A stretch of DNA of 64,000 nucleotides. Origin: Clostridia bacterium. Its GTDB lineage: Bacteria; Bacillota; Clostridia; TANB77; CAG-508. A model generated the notes under the pieces. It searched no databases and was not told where the DNA came from. It saw only the letters and a list, made by a program, of their open reading frames with translations. The stretch is from NCBI GenBank assembly GCA_017626365.1, contig JAGAIV010000036.1:31104-95103 (forward strand), in the 5' to 3' direction. Positions 3,001 through 52,757 of the stretch are shown here, piece after piece (the first letter of the stretch is position 1; each line of letters opens with the position of its first letter). The position numbers were made by a program, and so were the translations under genes.

Positions 3001-4542
3001 CAAGGTTTAAATGCCACATCATATAACGGTCAAGATTATCAATCAACAACCTTTACAACAAAACAAGGAGAAACTGTAACACCACATAATTATAAAGTGG
3101 ATGCAACTTTACAAAGTATTTATAATGCAAGTAATGCAGCTAAAAATAGTGAAGAAAAAGATGTAACAGTAGCAGATCAAGTTATTAAAAAATATGATAT
3201 AGAGGGATATTATTGGTTTGATGATCCATATATGGCTAATAAATCGGATGCAGAAGATGATGCAGCAAGAAGAGCACAAGTAGTTGCATATTCAAAAACA
3301 GAATATGGAAAAGAAATTACAAACCATAAAGCAGAAGTGTTTAACTCATATATTAACCAAAAGACATTAAGAGAACAAGAGTCTAAAGACGATAAATTTG
3401 ATAAGTTTACACAAGCACAGCCAATGGAGGAAGTTGTTGATACAGAAGCTAAAAATAGAGAGCTTGTTAATGAACTTGAAAGAAGAACCTATATGTATGC
3501 ATATACACCAGAAATCAAAGTAGAGGTTGAGTATACAACAAAACAAATTGAAGGAAACATGAATGCTAAGAAGGCAGCAGATGATAAGAAAGACTACTAT
3601 GAATACAAGATTACAGGAGTTGACTTCGGAGTAGTAGAAAGACCAAGAACGCAATTAACCATTGACCAAGATATTGATCATATTAAAGTTACAGCAGCAG
3701 ATGGAACGACTTTATTAGAATTACAACATGAAGAAACTGGAGACAACTTTAAGGTGGTAGTAAATAATGGTGATAACTACATGTATGCACCAAAGAGTGA
3801 TTTTAGCAAATATGATAAAGAAGAATTACTAAATGTTATCTTAGATGATGAGTTATTAAGTGGTGCAAAACTAGAAGTAACTTATAACATTACAGTAACA
3901 AACAATAGTGAAGCAAATACTGGTACTACAAGAGCAAAAACAATTATTAATTATGTAGCAAATAACTTAAACTTTGATTTAAGTGACAACAATGGTTTAT
4001 GGGAAGTAGTGAAAAAAGAAGATATTCAAACAACATCTCATTCAACATTTATCAATAACGCATCAAGAAATAAAGATGTAAAATTAGTAGATTTAAGTAC
4101 GCAAACAACAGTATTAAAAGCAACAAATGCTAACCCACTTACAAAGGTACTAAATCCAGGAGAAAGCACAACTTCTACATTAACCCTAAAGAAAACACTA
4201 TCTGCAGAAAGTTCAGTAGATGACTTAAGTTACAGTAATATGAGTGAAATCATAGAAATTGATAATACAGTAGGTAGATATGATCATGGAGCAATTCCAG
4301 GAAACCAAAGCTTAGAAGAACAACCACGTGAACATGATACTTCAGGAGCTAGTAGATACGATGAAATAGACCAAACTTCAGGAACAAAGAATGTAAAAAC
4401 AAGATATCCACAAGATGGTAAAATAATCGTAACACCACCAACAGGTTCAAAAATTATTTACTACGTATTAGGAATTACTTTAGCAGTTATATTAGCAACA
4501 GGAATTATCTTAATTAAGAAATTTGTAATACGTAAAAAATAA
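1..4542 (+). CDS. Large cell-wall-anchored surface adhesin, 5' end outside the window. It has several Cna-B-like repeats and a C-terminal sorting signal (TPPTG, hydrophobic helix, KKFVIRKK tail)
   Basis: Frame 1 is open from position 1 with no stop, so the track ORF 379..4542 is an internal Met. Repeated 'DGxYxF / GDYTxxFxYG' Cna-B-like motifs are present. The C-terminus reads ..VTPPTGSKIIYYVLGITLAVILATGIILIKKFVIRKK, a sortase (S/P)PxTG-like signal. Confidence 0.8.
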   Translation, partial: AQAYWKFYKLTHSGTTDIFETLIKDRSSNIKVGVDQTGGYYVVGPFKVTYPDGVYNGKNRFSWVEKVEAVTDTGTYPAEVLEYSDFGKEGSTSLNGKEFYIKFYSNTATNVSLKVKFGYLESCSATMKKYVGKRMNCNWTLQTSGKCDHSYNDPWDASKNDSNGNGIQDNGEVGDWHEWKVDKKRYEAKEEEGSATQRLMALEGQASKNYKYVEKVLPLQPIPLTIDIGGNVFLDKDEGKVNEGNNVFDDGEGLKGVEVYLYEASGNAASGQYEEKHVHSGSSSSGTGCYTTPIYHKHEGNVTEAVYHTHTLECYKHDDAGNVIDASGKILYDKNRNFVQNGTPIIICGKEERKTIDYYKNTCAGKVTYSTSYFTCTKTEGKTIDGYALGCNKIEGQTVEGRKEVKNKTITGDNGYYEFKNLNAMKKYYVEFVYNGMLYTNVLPFTGDNAEKQSKATEAAVSSTNRQAFNDKFKEIGSNPNNYMSPSRGAYNQVFLQEDIADTFKTIASNYGSHGNTDKEVFAFDCRIRARSVKNYPVLDKFAISESNETLGGETFPALYAGADNPKHINLGIKARQTFDLALYKDVFNAKLNINGQEEVYTYDARKDWQNEGFSYGVREDYYLEELRNKYIEGKDTNITTTEVASEGEYSHEYRTEEIINGNNVNENYQSWLKDNNYLNTLYGEDSNKQYAWRDINHGITDKDKLQIHVTYKIAIRNQSSVVGSVTEIVDYYDSHYQFEKAYVGDKDGKEIANTKVDASETSMYGEATRMGANGQWTVGSEKRGYKTIYLRPTEKKLYTDDKEQYIYVTFGLINPESTLIAAGLPQGKRFYTYNLAEINGYKTYGTDIKDTNSLGLIDRDSNPGNFNPATYEMGKTALEDDTSKAPAYAYSIRTSRTLEGNVFEDALSKDATASKEKYVVNVAKTRFGNGTIDSSDKKIEGVKVELVEIKNGQLVVRQTTYTDKDGWYGFGAFLPGDYTIRFTYGAEDKTALTTTSQYTQGLNATSYNGQDYQSTTFTTKQGETVTPHNYKVDATLQSIYNASNAAKNSEEKDVTVADQVIKKYDIEGYYWFDDPYMANKSDAEDDAARRAQVVAYSKTEYGKEITNHKAEVFNSYINQKTLREQESKDDKFDKFTQAQPMEEVVDTEAKNRELVNELERRTYMYAYTPEIKVEVEYTTKQIEGNMNAKKAADDKKDYYEYKITGVDFGVVERPRTQLTIDQDIDHIKVTAADGTTLLELQHEETGDNFKVVVNNGDNYMYAPKSDFSKYDKEELLNVILDDELLSGAKLEVTYNITVTNNSEANTGTTRAKTIINYVANNLNFDLSDNNGLWEVVKKEDIQTTSHSTFINNASRNKDVKLVDLSTQTTVLKATNANPLTKVLNPGESTTSTLTLKKTLSAESSVDDLSYSNMSEIIEIDNTVGRYDHGAIPGNQSLEEQPREHDTSGASRYDEIDQTSGTKNVKTRYPQDGKIIVTPPTGSKIIYYVLGITLAVILATGIILIKKFVIRKK

Positions 4543-8995: not shown

Positions 8996-10231
8996 ATGGA
9001 ACTAAAGACAAAATACCAATATACGTATTTTATTTATCCATACATAATTCGCGAAAATAAGTATGATAAATATTTATTAAAATTATTAAATCATAAAAAT
9101 TGTAAAGTAAAATTCTTTGAAAAAGAAAAAGATATGGATTTATATACATACTTTTTACCTAAAATTAAAGAGTTTATGTTTCAAGGATTTGAATTTAGTA
9201 AAGATAAAATACGAAAGTTTGAAGAATTTAATAAAGAAATGCAAGCAATCATTCTATCTAGATATCCTGCTACGATATTTGAATACGATTTAGGAACAGA
9301 TATGCAAGGAAAAGCAGGAGAAGAAGAAGGAATATTCTTTCATATGCAAAAAATGCAAATAATATGTTTTAATACAGGAATTTGCTTTTTAGTAATGAAA
9401 ACAAATATTGAAGATAGTAATGATTTTCGAGATGTTTTAGACTTTAATTATAAATTTAGAGATATTTATTCAGAGCTAAATCAGTTAAAAAAATATGAAA
9501 ATATACGCTTACAAACTGCGACTTTTGGAGATGTAAAAAAATTAACAGATTTAATAAAAGAATTAACAGGGAATGTAGAAGATGCAAAAGCACTAAACAT
9601 TGATACAAACCGCTTTTTAACTTTTGCCTATACTTGTATAGAACAAGACGCTTGGAATGATGATAAACAATTTAAAGACATTGAATTTGAATTCTTTAAA
9701 TATGCTAATATTTTCCCAAGCTCTTACAAATCAAACTTTGATAAAAAACATATGGAAATACTTTCAAAATGGAAGTTTATTCGTACAGGATTTACTAAAG
9801 AAGGAGTAGGACTTTTAACTTCTAGCATTGATATTCATAATTACACAAAATTACCATACTTTTATGAAAATCAATACCTATACACCTATATCCTTGCACA
9901 ATACCAAAAAATATATTTAAAGAAATTAGAAAATGAAGCAAAAAATAAAAATATGACGCAACCAGCAAGGGAAAAATTCATAAAATTCACAAAAGAATTA
10001 TGGATAGGGGAAGTTACAAACGATGATGTAGGAACAAATATCTATAAAAAAACAAGACAAGTATGTGATGTACAAAAATTATATGAAGAAGTAAAAAATA
10101 AATTTGATATTGCCTATAAAGAGCTAAATATTGAAAAAGAAAGTAAAGTAAACAAAATTATTCTAGTAATACTAGGAATTTCTTTATTTCTAAATATAAT
10201 AAACTTTATAAGTTTATTAAATATGATGTAA
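8996..10231 (+). CDS. Hypothetical protein with a C-terminal TM anchor
   Basis: ORF with a good RBS (aagggag) and a C-terminal hydrophobic helix. No family recognised. Confidence 0.5.
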   Translation: MELKTKYQYTYFIYPYIIRENKYDKYLLKLLNHKNCKVKFFEKEKDMDLYTYFLPKIKEFMFQGFEFSKDKIRKFEEFNKEMQAIILSRYPATIFEYDLGTDMQGKAGEEEGIFFHMQKMQIICFNTGICFLVMKTNIEDSNDFRDVLDFNYKFRDIYSELNQLKKYENIRLQTATFGDVKKLTDLIKELTGNVEDAKALNIDTNRFLTFAYTCIEQDAWNDDKQFKDIEFEFFKYANIFPSSYKSNFDKKHMEILSKWKFIRTGFTKEGVGLLTSSIDIHNYTKLPYFYENQYLYTYILAQYQKIYLKKLENEAKNKNMTQPAREKFIKFTKELWIGEVTNDDVGTNIYKKTRQVCDVQKLYEEVKNKFDIAYKELNIEKESKVNKIILVILGISLFLNIINFISLLNMM

Positions 10232-12885: not shown

Positions 12886-13440
12886 TTAATTACCAAAATC
12901 TACTTTTACATTTTTTCTTGCTTCATCTGAATCTACTTTAAATAATTCAGCTGGTTCAAAATGGAACATAGAAGCAATGATATTAGAAGGGATAACTTCT
13001 AATTTTGTATTGTAAATTGTAACGCTATCATTGTAGAATTGTCTTGAGAAAGAAATCTTGTTTTCTGTATTTTGAAGTTCTTCTTGCAATTCAGAAAAGT
13101 TTTGATTTGCTTTTAATTCTGGATAGCTTTCTGATACAGCCATAATTGTTTTTAATGTACCAGATAATTGGTTATTTAATTCAGCTTTTTCAGAAACACT
13201 AGATGCATTAGCCCAAGATGTTCTAAGTTCAGCAATTTTAGTTAAAGTATCTTCTTCATGCTTCATATATCCTTTAACTGTTTCAACTAAATTTGGAATT
13301 AAATCAAATCTTCTTTGTAATTGAACATCGATTTGACTCCATGCATTTCTAACTTTTTGTCTTAATCTTACTAAATTGTTGTAAATACTAATTACGAATA
13401 AAACTAGTAAAACAACAATAACTAATATAATCCAACCCAT
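12886..13440 (-). CDS. lemA: LemA family protein
   Basis: N-terminal TM helix plus LemA-like sequence. The lemA–htpX pairing is common. Confidence 0.8.
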   Translation of the reverse strand: MGWIILVIVVLLVLFVISIYNNLVRLRQKVRNAWSQIDVQLQRRFDLIPNLVETVKGYMKHEEDTLTKIAELRTSWANASSVSEKAELNNQLSGTLKTIMAVSESYPELKANQNFSELQEELQNTENKISFSRQFYNDSVTIYNTKLEVIPSNIIASMFHFEPAELFKVDSDEARKNVKVDFGN

Positions 13441-15273: not shown

Positions 15274-15369
15274 TGTAGGGGTCAATGCCCTCATCGACCC
15301 GTTTTCGTGAAATGTATAGTATAACAATACAAATTTAAAAACGGGTCGACGAAGGCGTCGACCCCTACA
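15274..15369. repeat. Family-2 GC-rich palindromic element. Two inverted GTAGGGGTCGAC hairpins flank a 40 nt AT-rich core, inserted between the RR and HK genes
   Basis: tgtaggggtcaatgccctcatcgacccgtttt ... aaaacgggtcgacgaaggcgtcgacccctaca. The arms are reverse complements with a few mismatches. Confidence 0.65.
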
Positions 15370-22777: not shown

Positions 22778-22877
22778 TTATTAAAAACCTCCTTTATTAA
22801 TAAATTATACCTCAAGTATATTCTTAAAATGCATAGATGTCAAGAAAAAAAGCTTATACTAAACGGTCATTTTTATA

Positions 22878-22926
22878 AAAGATGATTTTAGGTGGATGAT
22901 TTTTTCACCCGTCCCTAAAATCATTT
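22878..22926. repeat. Family-3 palindromic element (ATGATTTTAGGG...CCCTAAAATCAT), copy F1, lying between two divergent promoters
   Basis: aaagatgattttagg-tggatgattttttcaccc-gtccctaaaatcattt. The plus promoter TTGACA(22932)-17-TATAAT(22955) follows immediately. Confidence 0.6.
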
Positions 22927-22989
22927 AAAAATTGACATAATATTAATAAAATGCTATAATCTGATTAAAATCTCAAAGGAGGAAAGCGT

Positions 22990-23181
22990 GTGATGAAGGA
23001 AGTGGGTTTCATTGTCGCAATAATAGGAATCGCTATTTTTGTGACAGCATATGTTACTCAACAAGAATCTGAAAATCCTAAAGAAAAGCGGTCAAAAAAG
23101 CGATTATTGGTCGTGAGAGGGGTTTTAGGTTTTATTATCCTAATCATTGGTATCTATATGATACAAATGAATGTAGGATGA
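22990..23181 (+). CDS. Small hypothetical membrane protein (63 aa)
   Basis: Two hydrophobic helices and an RBS aaaggagg. It contains an in-frame CGG codon at 23068..23070. Confidence 0.4.
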   Translation: MMKEVGFIVAIIGIAIFVTAYVTQQESENPKEKRSKKRLLVVRGVLGFIILIIGIYMIQMNVG

Positions 23182-23286
23182 AATAGGCAGATTCGAAAGA
23201 TACTTTCGAATCTGCTTTTAATTTGAAAATAATTGATAAATTCAATAAATTGGTATACAATAACAAAAGGAAAAGGAGAATTTTTT

Positions 23287-24566: not shown

Positions 24567-24593
24567 TGTAGGGGTCGACGACCTCGTCGACCC
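24567..24593. repeat. Family-2 hairpin, single copy (E)
   Basis: tgtaggggtcgacg-acct-cgtcgaccc. Same core as 15274..15369. Confidence 0.6.
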
Positions 24594-24640
24594 AAAGATA
24601 CGAACAATATCCAAAACCTAAATTATAGGAGGCAATTCAA

Positions 24641-33743: not shown

Positions 33744-35597
33744 ATGGAAATTCGAGATATTAAAATACCGAAAATGAAATTTAAAAAAATGAAATTAAAT
33801 ACCGATATGTTGGAGCAATTTGAAGAGTTTGATTTTGAAACAATGGAAAAGAAATATACCAAAAATCGTACTACCCCATACGAAGATATGTCACATTATA
33901 AAACGGTTAAGGAATTCTTTTTAAAATCCATAAAAAACTATCCAAACAGACCATGTATTTTAGAAAAGCCAAACCATAAAGAACCATATAGAACTATTAC
34001 TTATGAAGAATTTGGAGAAGATGTACTAGCCTTAGGAACGGCCCTCATTCATCTATTAAATTTAAAAGATAAAAGGGTAATGATTATTGGAGAAACACAA
34101 TATGGCTGGTATATCTCATATATGGCAATGCTTTGCGGAGTAGGAATTGCAGTACCAACCGACCGAGAATTACCACTAAATGAACTAGAAAATATCATAA
34201 AAAGAGCTAAGATTTCTGCTATTATTTATTCTCCTAAAAGAGAAGATGATATGAAAAAATTACAAGAAAAATTACCAGAAGTAGAATATTTTATCGAAAT
34301 GAAATCTGAGCAAAAGATAGAAGGAAAACAAGTAGGATTACAGTATTTAGTAGAAACAGGAAGGCGATTGAGAAAAGCAGGAAATCATTCTTTTGAAGAA
34401 ATTGAAATTGATCCAGAAGAATTTAAAATTTTATTTTTTACATCAGGAACTACTTCAAATTCAAAAGGAGTTATGCTAAACAATAGAAACCTAGCAGAAA
34501 ATATTAATGCTGTATCTGCTTATGTCAAAATTTACCCAATGGACCGTTTATTTTCTGTACTACCACTACATCATTGTTATGAATCTACAATTGGTTTTTT
34601 AGTACCAATTGCACAAGGTTCTTCCATCGCCATTTGTGAAGGATTACGATATATTGTACAAAATTTACAAGAAGCAAAACCAACTGGAATTTTAACAGTA
34701 CCACTTTTAGTAGAAAGTTTGTATAAGAAAATAAATGAAAAAATCGTAAATAGCAAAAAAGATAAAATTGTTAATACGATGATATCTTTTACAAATGCCT
34801 TAAAAAAAGCAGGTATCGATATCAAAAAGAAAGTATTCAAAGAAATATATGATAACTTAGGGGGAAACTTAAGAATAGTTGTATGTGCAGCAGCTCCTAT
34901 TGATAAAAAAGTTGGGCTATGGTTAGAAGATATTGGAATGACTTTTTTGCAAGGATATGGTTTAACAGAAACCGCTCCTATATCTGCCTTAACACCAGAA
35001 TATAACACTTGTGTTGGTTCTTGTGGAAAAGCAATTGTACAAGCAGATATTAAAATTAAAAATCCAAATGAAGCAGGAGAAGGAGAAATTTTAATTAAAA
35101 CGCCAACTCTTATGATGGGATATTACGAAGATGAAGAAGCAACGAAAAAAGTAATTGATGACGATGAATATTTTAATTCTGGAGATATTGGATATATCGA
35201 CGAAAATGGATACATTTTTATTACAGGAAGAAGCAAAAATGTTATTGTAACACAAAACGGAAAAAACATTTATCCAGAAGAAATCGAAATGATGATTGAT
35301 AGAATTGATGAAGTAAAAGAATCTATGGTTTATGGAGCAAAACCAAGTAGCGAAAGTAAAAAAGAAGAAAAAGAATTGATTATTACAGCAAGAGTATTGC
35401 CGGATTATGATAAAATAAAAGAATTACATGGAGATATTTCCAAAGAAGAAATATATAATATTTTGTGGAGTAATATAAAAGAAGTAAATAAAAAATTAAC
35501 CTCGTACAAAGCAGTAAAAGCACTTGAAATAAAAGAAGGAGAATTTGAAAAAACTTCTACCATGAAAATTAAAAGATATAAAGAATTAATCCATTAA
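33744..35597 (+). CDS. Long-chain fatty-acid--CoA ligase (AMP-binding family)
   Basis: AMP-binding box FTSGTTSNSKGVML and the ..GYGLTE motif. Confidence 0.75.
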   Translation: MEIRDIKIPKMKFKKMKLNTDMLEQFEEFDFETMEKKYTKNRTTPYEDMSHYKTVKEFFLKSIKNYPNRPCILEKPNHKEPYRTITYEEFGEDVLALGTALIHLLNLKDKRVMIIGETQYGWYISYMAMLCGVGIAVPTDRELPLNELENIIKRAKISAIIYSPKREDDMKKLQEKLPEVEYFIEMKSEQKIEGKQVGLQYLVETGRRLRKAGNHSFEEIEIDPEEFKILFFTSGTTSNSKGVMLNNRNLAENINAVSAYVKIYPMDRLFSVLPLHHCYESTIGFLVPIAQGSSIAICEGLRYIVQNLQEAKPTGILTVPLLVESLYKKINEKIVNSKKDKIVNTMISFTNALKKAGIDIKKKVFKEIYDNLGGNLRIVVCAAAPIDKKVGLWLEDIGMTFLQGYGLTETAPISALTPEYNTCVGSCGKAIVQADIKIKNPNEAGEGEILIKTPTLMMGYYEDEEATKKVIDDDEYFNSGDIGYIDENGYIFITGRSKNVIVTQNGKNIYPEEIEMMIDRIDEVKESMVYGAKPSSESKKEEKELIITARVLPDYDKIKELHGDISKEEIYNILWSNIKEVNKKLTSYKAVKALEIKEGEFEKTSTMKIKRYKELIH

Positions 35598-35599
35598 GA

Positions 35600-35637
35600 A
35601 AAATGATTTTAGGGGTAGTCCCTAAAATCATTTTTTT
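35600..35637 (+). terminator. Family-3 palindrome, minimal copy F2, acting as a rho-independent terminator
   Basis: aaaatgattttagggg-ta-gtccctaaaatcatt followed by tttttt. Confidence 0.75.
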
Positions 35638-51072: not shown

Positions 51073-52674
51073 ATGAAAGATATAAGAAATTCAAATGCAT
51101 TAAAAGCAATTTGTTATATACTAGTACCATGTTTAATACTTATTATCATACTTAGTGCTATTTCAATAGGGTATTATGCAAGCGAAATAGATAGAAATGA
51201 ATTTAATCAATATCAAATAGATACAGGAGTAATAACAGAATATGAGGGAGATATTTATAGAGAAAATCTGGTTTATCAATTATCTGCTAATACATACCAA
51301 ATAGCACCAAGCATTTTTATGATATCAAGCATACTATTAATTATTTGTATGATATATATCATAATAAGTATTGGTCATAAAAAAGGAGAAGATGGTATTT
51401 ATTTAGACAGTTTAGATAAAATACCTTATGAATTACTATTAATACTTACATTAATCTTATTTGGAATAGAGATGGCTTTATTAGCAGGACCATGTTATCA
51501 GTTAATATTTGAAGAATATAATAGTTACATTATTAATACTGGAATTTTAGCAGCTATTTTAGATGGAGTTATTATTTATATTACAATTACTACATTAGTA
51601 ATAACAACAATTAGAAGAACGAAAGCACATATTTTTTGGAAGAATACAATTGTTTATAAATTATTTCAATTTATATTTAAAGGTTTATTTATAAATTTTA
51701 GCGAAACTGTAAAATTAGCAGTAGAATATGGTGGATTTATTATAGCATCTGTTATTCTTATATTTATTACAATGCAAAATCCGATTGTTGTTTTTTTCTT
51801 ACTAGGTTTTTGGTATTATATTTTTAAAAAGATATTAAGTCATATCAATCAATTCAATAAAGTAAGAGAAAAAATTGGAAAAATGTATAAAGGAGATATT
51901 AGCGTTCCATTGGACGAAGAGGAATTATATGGAGAACTAAGGCAGATAGCAAGGGAACTAAACGATATTTCGGGAGGACTTTCTAATGCAATAGAGGAGG
52001 CAACAAAAAGCGAACGTTTAAAAACGGAATTAATTACTAATGTTTCTCATGATATAAAAACACCGTTAACTTCTATTATTAACTATGTTGATTTAATGAA
52101 AAAAGAGGAGATAGAGAATCCTAAAGTACAAGAATATTTAGAAGTGTTAGATAACAAGTCACAAAGATTAAAGAAACTAACAGAAGATTTAATTGAAGCA
52201 TCAAAAGCATCTTCTGGAAATATCAAACTAACCATGGAAAAATTAAACGTAAAAGAACTAATAAAACAAGTTAGTGGAGAATTTGAAGATAGATTTCATA
52301 ATAGAGGATTAGAAATAATTGAAAACTATCCAGAAGAAGAAGTAAGCATTACAGCAGACAGTAGATATTTATATAGGGTAATGGAAAATGTATATGGAAA
52401 TATTGCAAAATACGCATTAGAAAATTCAAGAGTATACATTGATGTTATAAAAGAAAACAGAAAAGTACAAATTATTTTAAAAAATATTTCACAAGATAAG
52501 CTAAACATAACAGTAGATGAATTAATGCAGCGTTTTGTAAGAGGAGATGTTTCAAGAACCACAGAAGGGTCTGGACTTGGAATATCCATTGCAAAATCTT
52601 TAACAGAACTACAAAATGGAAAGTTTGATATTTTCTTAGATGGTGATTTATTTAAGGTTGTAATTGAATTTTAA
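51073..52674 (+). CDS. Sensor histidine kinase with a multi-TM N-terminus
   Basis: H-box VSHDIKTPL and ATPase G-boxes. Confidence 0.8.
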   Translation: MKDIRNSNALKAICYILVPCLILIIILSAISIGYYASEIDRNEFNQYQIDTGVITEYEGDIYRENLVYQLSANTYQIAPSIFMISSILLIICMIYIIISIGHKKGEDGIYLDSLDKIPYELLLILTLILFGIEMALLAGPCYQLIFEEYNSYIINTGILAAILDGVIIYITITTLVITTIRRTKAHIFWKNTIVYKLFQFIFKGLFINFSETVKLAVEYGGFIIASVILIFITMQNPIVVFFLLGFWYYIFKKILSHINQFNKVREKIGKMYKGDISVPLDEEELYGELRQIARELNDISGGLSNAIEEATKSERLKTELITNVSHDIKTPLTSIINYVDLMKKEEIENPKVQEYLEVLDNKSQRLKKLTEDLIEASKASSGNIKLTMEKLNVKELIKQVSGEFEDRFHNRGLEIIENYPEEEVSITADSRYLYRVMENVYGNIAKYALENSRVYIDVIKENRKVQIILKNISQDKLNITVDELMQRFVRGDVSRTTEGSGLGISIAKSLTELQNGKFDIFLDGDLFKVVIEF

Positions 52675-52676
52675 CC

Positions 52677-52757
52677 AAAAGATGATTTTAGGGACGGAGG
52701 AATCAACTTCTTAAATGAAGGATGATTTTTTCTTCCGTCTCTAAAATCATCTTTTTT
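52677..52757. repeat. Family-3 palindromic element, long copy F3, acting as a bidirectional terminator
   Basis: gatgattttagggacggagg ... cttccgtctctaaaatcatc + tttttt. An inner stem encloses the loop GATGATTTTTT, which is also present in F1. Confidence 0.65.

What the first reader, a model, noticed from the sequence alone, without database searches (positions are those of the whole stretch)
22878..22926. Family-3 palindromes (GATGATTTTAGGG...CCCTAAAATCATC) with a conserved inner loop GATGATTTTTT; two act as terminators and one sits between divergent promoters
There are three copies. F2 at 35600..35637 is a minimal hairpin with a T-run, a terminator after the CoA-ligase gene. F3 at 52677..52757 is a long stem with an inner hairpin, a bidirectional terminator between the HK (+) and the COG2426 gene (-). 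F1 at 22878..22926 is not at a gene end. It lies between the por promoter on the minus strand and the TTGACA-17-TATAAT promoter of the small membrane gene on the plus strand. F1 and F3 share an inner stem-loop whose loop sequence GATGATTTTTT is identical while the enclosing stems differ (ggtg/cacc vs gaag/cttc). That suggests the loop sequence itself is recognised
Basis: seen in the sequence. Interest (0 to 1): 0.5.

Follow-up and report, generated by a model that had tools for sequence, protein, structure and literature searches.

The report
REP-like palindromic repeats reused as terminators
The three look-alike hairpins are copies of a small dispersed palindromic repeat of the REP/REPIN kind, which in related gut Clostridia clusters around a REP-type tyrosine-transposase gene; two copies sit where terminators belong and probably act as such, so this is a new example of a known kind of element, not a new regulatory signal.

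Summary
F1 (22877-22926), F2 (35599-35637) and F3 (52677-52757) share arms and internal sequence far beyond chance. All three are extragenic. They are built from one 31-nt unit, written here on the minus strand: GATGATTTT-AGGGACGGnnnAA-AAAATCATC. F3 is an inverted doublet of this unit. F1 is one unit plus a 12-nt partner remnant. F2 is a collapsed palindrome.

The truly conserved loop is AGGGACGG.

Sister species lack all three copies. They carry unrelated terminators at the F2 and F3 sites and no F1 upstream of the conserved por promoter.

The same unit (27-28 of 31 identical) occurs in other low-GC Clostridia. There five to seven copies crowd within 4 kb around a Y1/HUH transposase gene. That protein's best sequence and fold match is E. 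coli TnpA-REP (4ER8). A syntenic species without that gene has no copies.

Best reading: a REP/REPIN-like repeat family mobilised by a RAYT-like enzyme, with F2 and F3 co-opted as intrinsic terminators and F1 an incidental copy. It is a new member of a known kind. No transposase gene was seen in this window, and the genome-wide copy number is unknown.

The parts
22877..22926 (.). F1: one complete repeat unit plus a 12-nt remnant of an inverted partner. Lies between divergent promoters, not at a gene end.
   Evidence: Sequence. Folds. Identical in three same-species contigs. Absent from the orthologous por upstream regions of L129, L136 and L137.
22895..22925 (-). F1 31-nt unit: AATGATTTT-AGGGACGGGTGAA-AAAATCATC.
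   Evidence: CM R1 48.5 bits. 27/31 identical to the unit that flanks the Y1 transposase gene in L148.
22881..22892 (+). F1 partner remnant GATGATTTTAGG. Pairs with 22914-22925 to give the outer stem.
35599..35637 (.). F2: collapsed palindrome AAAAATGATTTTAGGG-gtagt-CCCTAAAATCATTTTT plus a T run. Probable intrinsic terminator of the AMP-binding (CoA-ligase-like) gene, which ends at 35597.
   Evidence: CM R1 30.7 bits, E 7e-6 on the minus strand, not in the training set. The minus strand keeps ATGATTTTAGGGAC of the unit. Sister species have unrelated terminators here.
52677..52757 (.). F3: inverted doublet (REPIN-like) that fills the gap between the convergent histidine-kinase and Sm_multidrug_ex genes. 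Probable bidirectional terminator.
   Evidence: -42.7 kcal/mol, z -10.4. The orthologous gap in L144 holds an unrelated bidirectional terminator.
52721..52751 (-). F3 intact 31-nt unit: GATGATTTT-AGAGACGGAAGAA-AAAATCATC.
   Evidence: CM R1 50.9 bits. 28/31 identical to the L148 unit.
52681..52707 (+). F3 degenerate partner unit GATGATTTTAGGGACGGAGGAATCAAC. Its 3' arm has decayed.
   Evidence: CM R1 20.6 bits, E 0.004, not in the training set. GGGACGGAGGAA is identical to the L160 copy at 3236.
22815..22843 (-). Context only: por promoter match TTGACA-17-TATACT, conserved in relatives that lack F1.
22932..22960 (+). Context only: promoter match TTGACA-17-TATAAT of the 62-aa membrane gene, 6 nt beyond F1.

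Best explanation
F1, F2 and F3 are copies, by descent, of a short dispersed extragenic palindromic repeat of the REP/REPIN class.

The basic unit is a 31-nt imperfect hairpin. It has a 9-bp A/T-rich stem (GATGATTTT/AAAATCATC) and a 13-nt loop whose AGGGACGG part is invariant. Units occur singly, as inverted doublets that fold into long hairpins (F3), or as internally deleted doublets (F1, F2).

Inferred mechanism: a RAYT-like Y1/HUH nuclease binds the hairpin in single-stranded DNA, reads the conserved loop and flanks, and cuts and rejoins DNA to copy the element into other intergenic sites.

Copies that land just after a gene and are flanked by A and T runs are transcribed into a stable hairpin followed by U's, and then work as Rho-independent terminators. 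F2 would terminate one way and F3 both ways. In this lineage they have taken the place of the older terminators.

F1 is a copy that landed upstream of two promoters and most likely has no dedicated function.

Shown: family membership, hairpin potential, extragenic position, lineage-specific presence, and clustering of the same unit around a TnpA-REP-like gene in other Clostridia.

Inferred: mobilisation by that enzyme class in this genome, and termination at F2 and F3.
For: Common descent:
- F1 and F3 share 27/31 positions plus the outer arms. F2 shares 14-15 nt that run beyond its own palindrome (GTCCCTAAAATCATT).
- The CM finds F2 and the left unit of F3 although neither was used for training.

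Extragenic position:
- All copies lie in the 9.4% of the window that is non-coding.

Lineage-specific presence:
- The CM finds no copy at E<=1 in 86 kb from five sister-species loci, and none in L144.
- The orthologous F2 and F3 sites carry unrelated terminators, and the por upstream region lacks F1.

Link to a transposase:
- A metagenome scan for the unit found L128, where it lies 50 nt from a Y1_Tnp gene. Pfam gives E 2.8e-11. The top NCBIfam hit is REP_Tyr_transpos, E 6e-19.
- In L148-L155 that gene sits in a fixed locus: ABC-F, dCMP deaminase, Y1 gene, Tex. Units lie at 9227(+), 9299(+), 10811(-), 13065(+) and 13139(-), with related hairpins at 9901 and 10771. There are none in the other ~16 kb.
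- Species Y (Tex 89.7% identical, same synteny) has no Y1 gene, no units, and an unrelated Tex/RR terminator.

Enzyme class:
- A profile of 47 homologues hits 4ER8 TnpA-REP at E 7e-7, against about 0.09 for ISDra2 TnpA.
- An AF2 model (pLDDT 90.6) has 4ER8 as top fold hit (E 4.6e-7, TMt 0.72), ahead of IS608 and ISDra2.
- The two histidines of the HUH motif (H60, H62) and N125/P126 of YIHxNP are invariant. Y121 is at least 90% conserved.

Orientation:
- Units occur in both orientations relative to neighbouring genes. That fits a DNA element, not an RNA gene.

Literature:
- RAYTs are characteristically flanked by their REPINs, and Group 1 RAYTs occur in Clostridia (PMC5581495).
- Deletions inside a REPIN give long palindromes with a single REP (PMC3116915).
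- REPs act as terminators or stabilisers (bioRxiv 10.64898/2026.03.23.713779).
Against: - No Y1 transposase gene lies in the 64-kb window. The rest of this genome could not be reached, so the enzyme link rests on other organisms whose relationship to this one is undetermined.
- Only three loci are known in this genome. Copy number is unknown and may be low.
- The unit lacks the 5' GTAG tag of classical REPs, its stem is A/T-rich, and its loop is unusually long.
- The Y1 protein scores below NCBIfam's cut-off for REP_Tyr_transpos (68.3 against 80).
- Stem covariation is not significant: 206 of 500 shuffles reach the observed score, because the copies are too alike.
- No presence/absence polymorphism of a copy within one species was seen. 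F1 is identical in three contigs.
- No conserved target sequence or duplication was found at the copy borders.
- In species X2 most strains have lost the Y1 gene yet keep the units, so present-day copies may be immobile relics.
- Termination at F2 and F3 is inferred from sequence only.
Confidence: 0.7

Rival explanations
1. The units are ends, or end-derived miniatures (PATE-like), of an active IS200/IS605-type insertion sequence, not REPs served by a domesticated single-copy RAYT. The Y1 gene would then be an ordinary IS transposase, and F1-F3 solo ends left by its movement.
For: - The Y1 gene is directly bracketed by two hairpins with the same GATGA-TTTT stem (L148 9901-9924 and 10771-10799) about 870 bp apart, an IS200-like size.
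- The gene is present in L164 but absent from 9 of 10 places of the same species.
- IS608 and ISDra2 TnpA are also clear fold matches.
Against: - In all contigs read, the gene sits in one chromosomal locus with the same neighbours. No second copy was seen.
- The loss in X2 is a microhomology deletion that leaves the upstream hairpin and the downstream units in place, not a clean excision at element ends.
- Sequence profile and fold both rank TnpA-REP first, the profile by five orders of magnitude.
- NCBIfam's only Y1 match at E<=0.01 is REP_Tyr_transpos.
- At 248 aa with a C-terminal helical domain, the protein is longer than the solved IS200-type TnpA chains matched here (about 125-150 residues).
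Confidence: 0.12
2. There is no mobility. The three hairpins are ordinary terminators or hairpins that became alike through local duplication, gene conversion or convergent selection for a good A/T-flanked stem.
For: - F2 and F3 are at terminator positions, and all stems are A/T-rich like the genome (30% GC).
- Terminators turn over quickly between the sister species.
Against: - F1 is not at a gene end.
- Similarity extends through unpaired parts (AGGGACGG; GTCCC in F2), which a terminator does not need.
- The copies are 13-17 kb apart.
- The same 31-mer recurs in other genomes, in both orientations and clustered at a transposase gene.
Confidence: 0.06
3. The palindrome is an operator for a DNA-binding regulator. 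F1 would control the divergent por and small-gene promoters, and the other copies would be further sites of the regulon.
For: F1 lies between two strong promoter matches and ends 6 nt from a -35 box. The half-sites are 12-bp inverted repeats.
Against: - The spacing between half-sites is 5, 21 and 45 nt in the three copies, which a dimeric operator would not tolerate.
- F2 and F3 lie at 3' ends of genes.
- Relatives keep the por promoter and its conserved upstream block without F1.
- In other genomes the copies pile up around a transposase gene, not at promoters of related genes.
Confidence: 0.05
4. The unit is a structured RNA (small RNA or cis-regulatory leader) whose conserved loop is read by a protein or another RNA.
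For: - The loop is conserved and the predicted hairpins are stable.
- One copy in L148 ends 15 nt before the Tex start codon.
Against: - No Rfam family reaches its threshold. Lenient searches give only generic long-hairpin matches to plant microRNA precursor models.
- Copies occur in both orientations relative to flanking genes.
- No promoter match reads into F1.
- There is no significant covariation.
Confidence: 0.03

Closest known systems
REP/REPIN elements with their RAYT (TnpA-REP) transposases, as in E. coli and Pseudomonas fluorescens
   Same: - Short imperfect palindromes confined to extragenic space.
- Singlets and inverted doublets that fold into long hairpins.
- Copies packed around a single Y1/HUH gene whose closest solved relative is TnpA-REP (4ER8).
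- Gene and repeats present or absent together between related species.
- Copies found between convergent genes and at 3' ends, where they can terminate or stabilise transcripts.
   Different: - No unpaired 5' GTAG tag.
- The stem is A/T-rich instead of G/C-rich.
- The loop is long (13 nt) and is the most conserved part.
- The host is a low-GC Clostridia lineage.
- The enzyme has an extra roughly 100-aa C-terminal helical domain and misses the NCBIfam cut-off.
- The copy number seen so far is small.
- The enzyme gene was not seen in the window's own genome.
IS200/IS605 insertion sequences and their miniature derivatives (PATEs)
   Same: - A Y1/HUH transposase fold.
- Recognition of subterminal DNA hairpins in single-stranded DNA.
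- Hairpins on both sides of the gene.
   Different: - The gene appears fixed at one locus and is not multiplied.
- The dispersed copies are 31-80 nt, much shorter than typical PATEs (a figure recalled, not checked here).
- No fixed target tetranucleotide was found at the borders.
GTAG- and CGTC-tagged REP superfamilies (Di Nocera et al. 2013, PMC3733652)
   Same: - Small palindromic repeats, mostly as head-to-head dimers, in intergenic DNA.
- The unit contains a CGTC on the plus strand.
   Different: - Here the CGTC lies inside the loop, not as an unpaired tag beside an 8-9 bp stem with a 4-5 nt loop.
- That survey does not mention Firmicutes or Clostridia.
- CGTC repeats there lack an associated transposase, whereas this unit has one in relatives.
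Miniature repeats that double as terminators (for example Neisseria Correia elements, E. coli REP/BIME)
   Same: A dispersed repeat whose hairpin, placed after a gene, can end or stabilise the transcript.
   Different: - There are no DDE-type terminal inverted repeats with a target duplication.
- Here the copies appear to have replaced pre-existing terminators at the same sites (W against L144; X against Y).

Membership tests
REP/REPIN-RAYT system | Short imperfect palindrome, repeated, confined to extragenic space | tested here: met
   Three loci (four units) in 64 kb, all in the 9.4% that is non-coding. Motif counts far exceed shuffles.
REP/REPIN-RAYT system | Inverted doublets that fold into a long hairpin (REPIN) | tested here: met
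   F3 is two inverted units, -42.7 kcal/mol as RNA. L148 13053-13181 is a perfect 47-nt-arm doublet.
REP/REPIN-RAYT system | Copies flank the RAYT gene | not testable with these tools
   For this genome: no Y1 gene in the window, and the rest of the genome was out of reach. In other Clostridia (L128, L148-155, L164) the feature is met: 35-nt arms at 9226 and 10808 bracket the gene in inverted orientation.
REP/REPIN-RAYT system | Associated protein is a Y1/HUH nuclease closest to TnpA-REP | tested here: met
   Pfam Y1_Tnp E 2.8e-11. Profile against PDB: 4ER8 E 7e-7, ISDra2 about 0.09. AF2 model pLDDT 90.6 with top fold hit 4ER8, E 4.6e-7. H60 and H62 (HUH) and N125/P126 invariant; Y121 at least 90% conserved.
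REP/REPIN-RAYT system | Protein passes NCBIfam REP_Tyr_transpos (NF047646) cut-off | tested here: not met
   68.3 bits against a cut-off of 80. It is nevertheless the top hit and the only Y1 hit.
REP/REPIN-RAYT system | Transposase gene single-copy at a fixed locus, not itself multiplied | tested here: inconclusive
   All contigs read show the same neighbours: ABC-F, deaminase, Tex. No complete genome was available to count copies.
REP/REPIN-RAYT system | Unpaired 5' GTAG tag next to the stem | tested here: not met
   No GTAG flanks the units. The GTAG in the F2 loop and at L148 9220 are isolated cases.
REP/REPIN-RAYT system | Tens to hundreds of copies per genome | not testable with these tools
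   Only 64 kb of this genome is held.
REP/REPIN-RAYT system | Copies present or absent at orthologous sites (mobility) | tested here: inconclusive
   Between species: absent from all orthologous sites and from 103 kb of sister loci; X against Y likewise. Within species: no polymorphic copy seen.
Rho-independent terminator | Stable hairpin right after a stop codon, followed by a U run | tested here: met
   F2: 2 nt after the stop, -20.9 kcal/mol, U7. F3: 3 nt after the stop, -42.7 kcal/mol, U6 on plus; weaker UCUUUUGG on minus. F1 fails this test because no gene reads into it. The simple scanner missed F2 because its stem absorbs part of the T run.
IS200/IS605 or PATE | Several copies of a transposase gene, each bounded by left- and right-end hairpins and inserted next to a fixed short target | tested here: inconclusive
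   Hairpins bracket the gene. But only one locus was seen, and no common flanking tetranucleotide was found among the copies.
DDE-type MITE | Terminal inverted repeats plus a target-site duplication | tested here: not met
   The flanks of F1-F3 and of the L148/L020 copies show no direct duplication.
Any Rfam RNA family | Score at or above the family's gathering threshold | tested here: not met
   0 hits in the window. Lenient searches give only sub-threshold generic long-hairpin matches.

The most novel reading that the evidence does not exclude
These Clostridia carry a REP system of an undescribed type. It is untagged and A/T-rich, and a RAYT-like enzyme with an added C-terminal DNA-binding-like domain recognises it through a conserved 13-nt loop. 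Its doublets also repeatedly overwrite the intrinsic terminators between convergent genes, which was seen twice independently: the HK/Sm_multidrug_ex gap in this window and the Tex/RR gap in L148. On this reading a domesticated transposase would be supplying and renewing the host's terminators.
Probability: 0.25. Interest if true: 0.5.

Novelty: new member of a known kind. Interest (0 to 1): 0.33.

Why it matters
REP/RAYT systems have been studied almost only in Proteobacteria. Surveys of tagged REPs do not mention Firmicutes or Clostridia (PMC3733652). Clostridial Group 1 RAYTs were reported, but their flanking repeats are only modestly abundant (PMC5581495).

This work gives a concrete unit sequence, an enzyme candidate with a confident model, and natural plus/minus comparisons (X against Y; X2 strains with and without the gene) for an uncultured gut Clostridia group.

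It also gives two clean cases in which such a repeat sits exactly where sister species have an unrelated terminator. That is useful for thinking about how terminators turn over.

For annotation, it warns against reading F1 as a regulatory site.

Tried and rejected
- **Genome scan swamped.** It was filled by an unrelated Rhizobiaceae palindrome family and a Veillonella coding repeat. The source genome was not reached; only L020 and L106 were useful.
- **No viral, plasmid or phage relatives.** Viral contig scans gave chance hits or nothing. blastn of F3 against plasmids and phages gave nothing significant.
- **Rfam.** No family.
- **Metagenome scan.** Two hits: L127 is a chance match inside a PPIase-like gene, and L128 is real.
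- **Extending the window leftwards failed.** The first gene runs off the window. The L020 protein could not be looked up directly, and its cluster has only its own 3.5-kb contig.
- **This genome's own Y1 gene not found.** tblastn of the L128 enzyme against the window and all loci found only L128.
- **Covariation.** The 9-bp stem is not significantly supported.
- **Structure.** The single-sequence AF2 model was unusable (pLDDT 47.6). It was replaced by an alignment-based model.
- **Element borders.** A search for target duplications or a common flanking motif found none.
- **Strand bias.** All three best CM hits are on the minus strand while GC skew marks plus as the leading strand. Three cases are too few to interpret.
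- **Relationship between genomes.** tblastx of L128, L020 and L106 against the window and the loci then held found no shared genes, so the relationship of those genomes to the window's organism is unknown.

Full report
**1. The observation**

The three palindromes are at the stated places.

- F1, 22877-22926: AAAAGATGATTTTAGGtgGATGATTTTTTCACCCGTCCCTAAAATCATT.
- F2, 35599-35637: AAAAATGATTTTAGGGgtagtCCCTAAAATCATTTTTTT.
- F3, 52677-52757: AAAAGATGATTTTAGGGACGGAGGAAtcaacttcttaaatgaagGATGATTTTTTCTTCCGTCTCTAAAATCATCTTTTTT.

The shared 13-mer arm occurs 11 times at up to 2 mismatches, against 2.4 +/- 1.6 in shuffles. Six of these are the arms of F1-F3. The others are unpaired matches inside genes. 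A 26-nt core is present twice against none expected.

All three fold far better than shuffled sequence, as RNA and as single-stranded DNA.

The window is 30% GC and 90.6% coding, and all copies are extragenic.

**2. Anatomy**

On the minus strand, F1 and F3 contain the same 31-nt unit: GATGATTTT-AGGGACGGnnnAA-AAAATCATC. It has a 9-bp stem and a 13-nt loop, and the two copies are 27/31 identical.

- F3 is an inverted doublet. It has an intact unit at 52721-52751(-) and a decayed partner at 52681-52707(+).
- F1 is one unit at 22895-22925(-) plus a 12-nt remnant of a partner.
- F2 keeps ATGATTTTAGGGAC and GTCCCTAAAATCAT around a new 5-nt loop. This is homology that runs past its own palindrome.

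A covariance model built from 12 distinct units finds only these loci in the window. It recovers F2 (30.7 bits, E 7e-6) and the left unit of F3 (E 0.004), neither of which was used for training.

The invariant unpaired part is AGGGACGG.

An alternative conformation does exist in F1 and in some foreign copies. In it the distal arms pair and a small inner stem presents AAATCATC in a loop. The ggtg/cacc and gaag/cttc complementarity is real. It can, however, descend from an inverted doublet, and two cases do not show selection.

Covariation in the 9-bp stem is not significant, because the copies are too similar.

**3. Context in the window**

- **F2.** It begins 2 nt after the stop of an AMP-binding (CoA-ligase-like) gene and ends in T7. 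A 12/12 promoter match for the next gene follows.
- **F3.** It fills the gap between the convergent stops of a histidine kinase and a Sm_multidrug_ex gene.
- **F1.** It lies between the por promoter match (TTGACA-17-TATACT, minus strand) and a 12/12 match for a 62-aa membrane gene. No promoter match reads into it.

**4. Relatives of this organism**

The same species, in three metagenome contigs, has an identical F1.

Species with 89-95% identical por gamma subunits keep the por promoter and a conserved block just upstream. They have neither F1 nor the small gene. In two of them the CCA-enzyme gene abuts por directly.

The closest species for the CoA-ligase gene (86-88% identity) and for the kinase (71%) keep the gene order. 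They carry unrelated hairpin-plus-U terminators exactly where F2 and F3 sit.

The covariance model finds nothing at E<=1 in 86 kb of five such loci, nor in L144. The family is thus lineage-specific, and F2 and F3 occupy positions where a terminator is expected.

**5. The same unit elsewhere**

- A genome scan, although swamped, gave L020. This is a 28%-GC Bacillota MAG that carries GATGATTTTAGGGACGGAGCAAAAAATCATC plus a decayed partner.
- A metagenome scan for the core gave L128. It has two units in opposite orientation and, between them, a 252-aa gene.
- That gene is a Y1_Tnp (Pfam E 2.8e-11). Its best NCBIfam hit is REP-associated tyrosine transposase: E 6e-19, 68 bits, below the cut-off of 80.
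- Its 90% cluster has 97 members.
- Contigs carrying one member show a constant locus: ABC-F, dCMP deaminase, Y1 gene, Tex. Units lie at 9227(+), 9299(+, decayed), 10811(-), 13065(+) and 13139(-). Two related hairpins hug the gene. Nothing lies elsewhere in 20 kb.
- The 13053-13181 doublet sits between convergent Tex and a response-regulator gene.
- A species with the same gene order and 89.7% identical Tex has no Y1 gene, tiny intergenic gaps, no units, and an unrelated terminator between Tex and the regulator gene.
- In another species (X2) one contig has the Y1 gene. Nine places lack it through a roughly 0.8-kb microhomology deletion but keep the units.

**6. The enzyme**

Homologues are many: 21,601 cluster representatives at E<=1e-3, and 175 at E<=1e-30 with the same length.

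- A 47-sequence profile matches PDB 4ER8 (TnpA-REP bound to a REP hairpin) at E 7e-7. The ISDra2 transposase scores about 0.09.
- The alignment-based model (pLDDT 90.6) has 4ER8 as its best fold match (E 4.6e-7, TMt 0.72). IS608 and ISDra2 follow at about 1e-4.
- H60 and H62 (the HUH motif) and N125/P126 of YIHxNP are invariant. Y121 is at least 90% conserved and aligns with the Tyr of YIYINPVK in 4ER8. That this is the catalytic tyrosine is from my own recollection of the 4ER8 paper.

**7. Interpretation**

The family has the hallmarks of REP/REPIN elements:

- extragenic imperfect palindromes;
- singlets, inverted doublets and internally deleted doublets, as described for REPINs (PMC3116915);
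- crowding around a TnpA-REP-like gene (PMC5581495);
- joint presence or absence with that gene between species.

Most likely F1-F3 were spread by such an enzyme acting on hairpins in single-stranded DNA. F2 and F3 now serve as terminators. F1 is a bystander. REPs acting as terminators or stabilisers are documented in E. coli (bioRxiv 10.64898/2026.03.23.713779).

Differences from classical REPs:

- there is no GTAG tag;
- the stem is A/T-rich;
- the loop is long and conserved;
- the host is a Clostridia lineage, a group the tagged-REP survey does not mention (PMC3733652).

**8. Limits**

- No Y1 gene lies in this window, and the rest of the genome was unreachable.
- The relationship between this organism and those that carry the gene is unknown.
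- The copy number is unknown.
- Mobility within a species and termination were not observed.
- The IS200/PATE alternative is not excluded.

**9. Verdict**

The element is a new member of a known kind, of modest interest.

Noticed in passing
window 15274-15305(+), 15338-15369(-) and 24567-24595(+): A second, unrelated repeat family that looks like a classical REP: an unpaired GTAG followed by a G/C-rich hairpin (TGTAG-GGGTCGACG-nnnn-CGTCGACCC) in a 30%-GC genome. There is one inverted doublet between a response-regulator gene and its kinase gene, and one singlet upstream of gene 24641. It is present in same-species contigs only and absent from all other loci held. GTAG-tagged REPs are the canonical RAYT substrate, and the 2013 survey (PMC3733652) does not mention Firmicutes. 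This family may deserve its own follow-up.
   Followed up: partly
window 22778-23232; L129, L136, L137: The spacer between por and the CCA-adding enzyme gene is a variable spot. Here it holds F1 plus a promoter, a 62-aa membrane gene and its terminator (23185-23217). Two relatives have nothing there (173-183 nt). Another has RelB/YafQ and PhdYeFM toxin-antitoxin genes. A block AAAAtTGACCrTTTmGTATAAG just upstream of the por -35 is conserved in all of them.
   Followed up: partly
L148 13053-13181 against L151 5797-5925: The spacer of the perfect inverted doublet between Tex and the regulator gene is flipped between strains. This looks like recombination between the inverted units.
   Followed up: no
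L149 13065, L155 329, L160 8937, L164 7388: There are 10-12-nt tandem duplications at the 5' end of units (for example GATGATTTTAGG-TGATTTTAGGGACGG). They arose in several copies and strains and suggest slippage at the hairpin foot.
   Followed up: no
L164 6563-7400 against L160 6563-6615: The Y1 transposase gene is present in one contig. It is deleted in nine other places that share an identical deaminase protein. The junction is AATAGGGGT|GATTTTAGGG. The repeat units persist without the gene.
   Followed up: partly
L010-L123 (Rhizobium, Sinorhizobium, Ensifer loci): A multi-copy palindrome family in Rhizobiaceae, GGATGATTTTAGG(Y)CG-n5-CG(R)CCTAAAATCATCC, shares the same 12-nt arms as the Clostridial family but has a G/C-rich centre. 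Probably coincidence, made visible by the search pattern, but unexplained.
   Followed up: no
L106 7204-7247: A Clostridia MAG from sheep jejunum has an F2-like minimal palindrome, AAAAAAGATGATTTTAGGaaaataCCTAAAATCATCTTTT, between convergent genes. It may be a further member or a chance terminator.
   Followed up: partly
window 51073-52674: The histidine kinase next to F3 is 533 aa, whereas nearly all of the closest orthologues are 660-690 aa and align over about 91% of it. This may be an internal deletion or a different sensor domain in this lineage.
   Followed up: no
P0363 residues 150-248: The RAYT-like enzyme carries a confidently modelled C-terminal helical domain that is absent from the 165-residue 4ER8 chain. 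It has weak similarity to a ComEA-like DNA-binding family and to a sigma-28 (FliA) chain.
   Followed up: no
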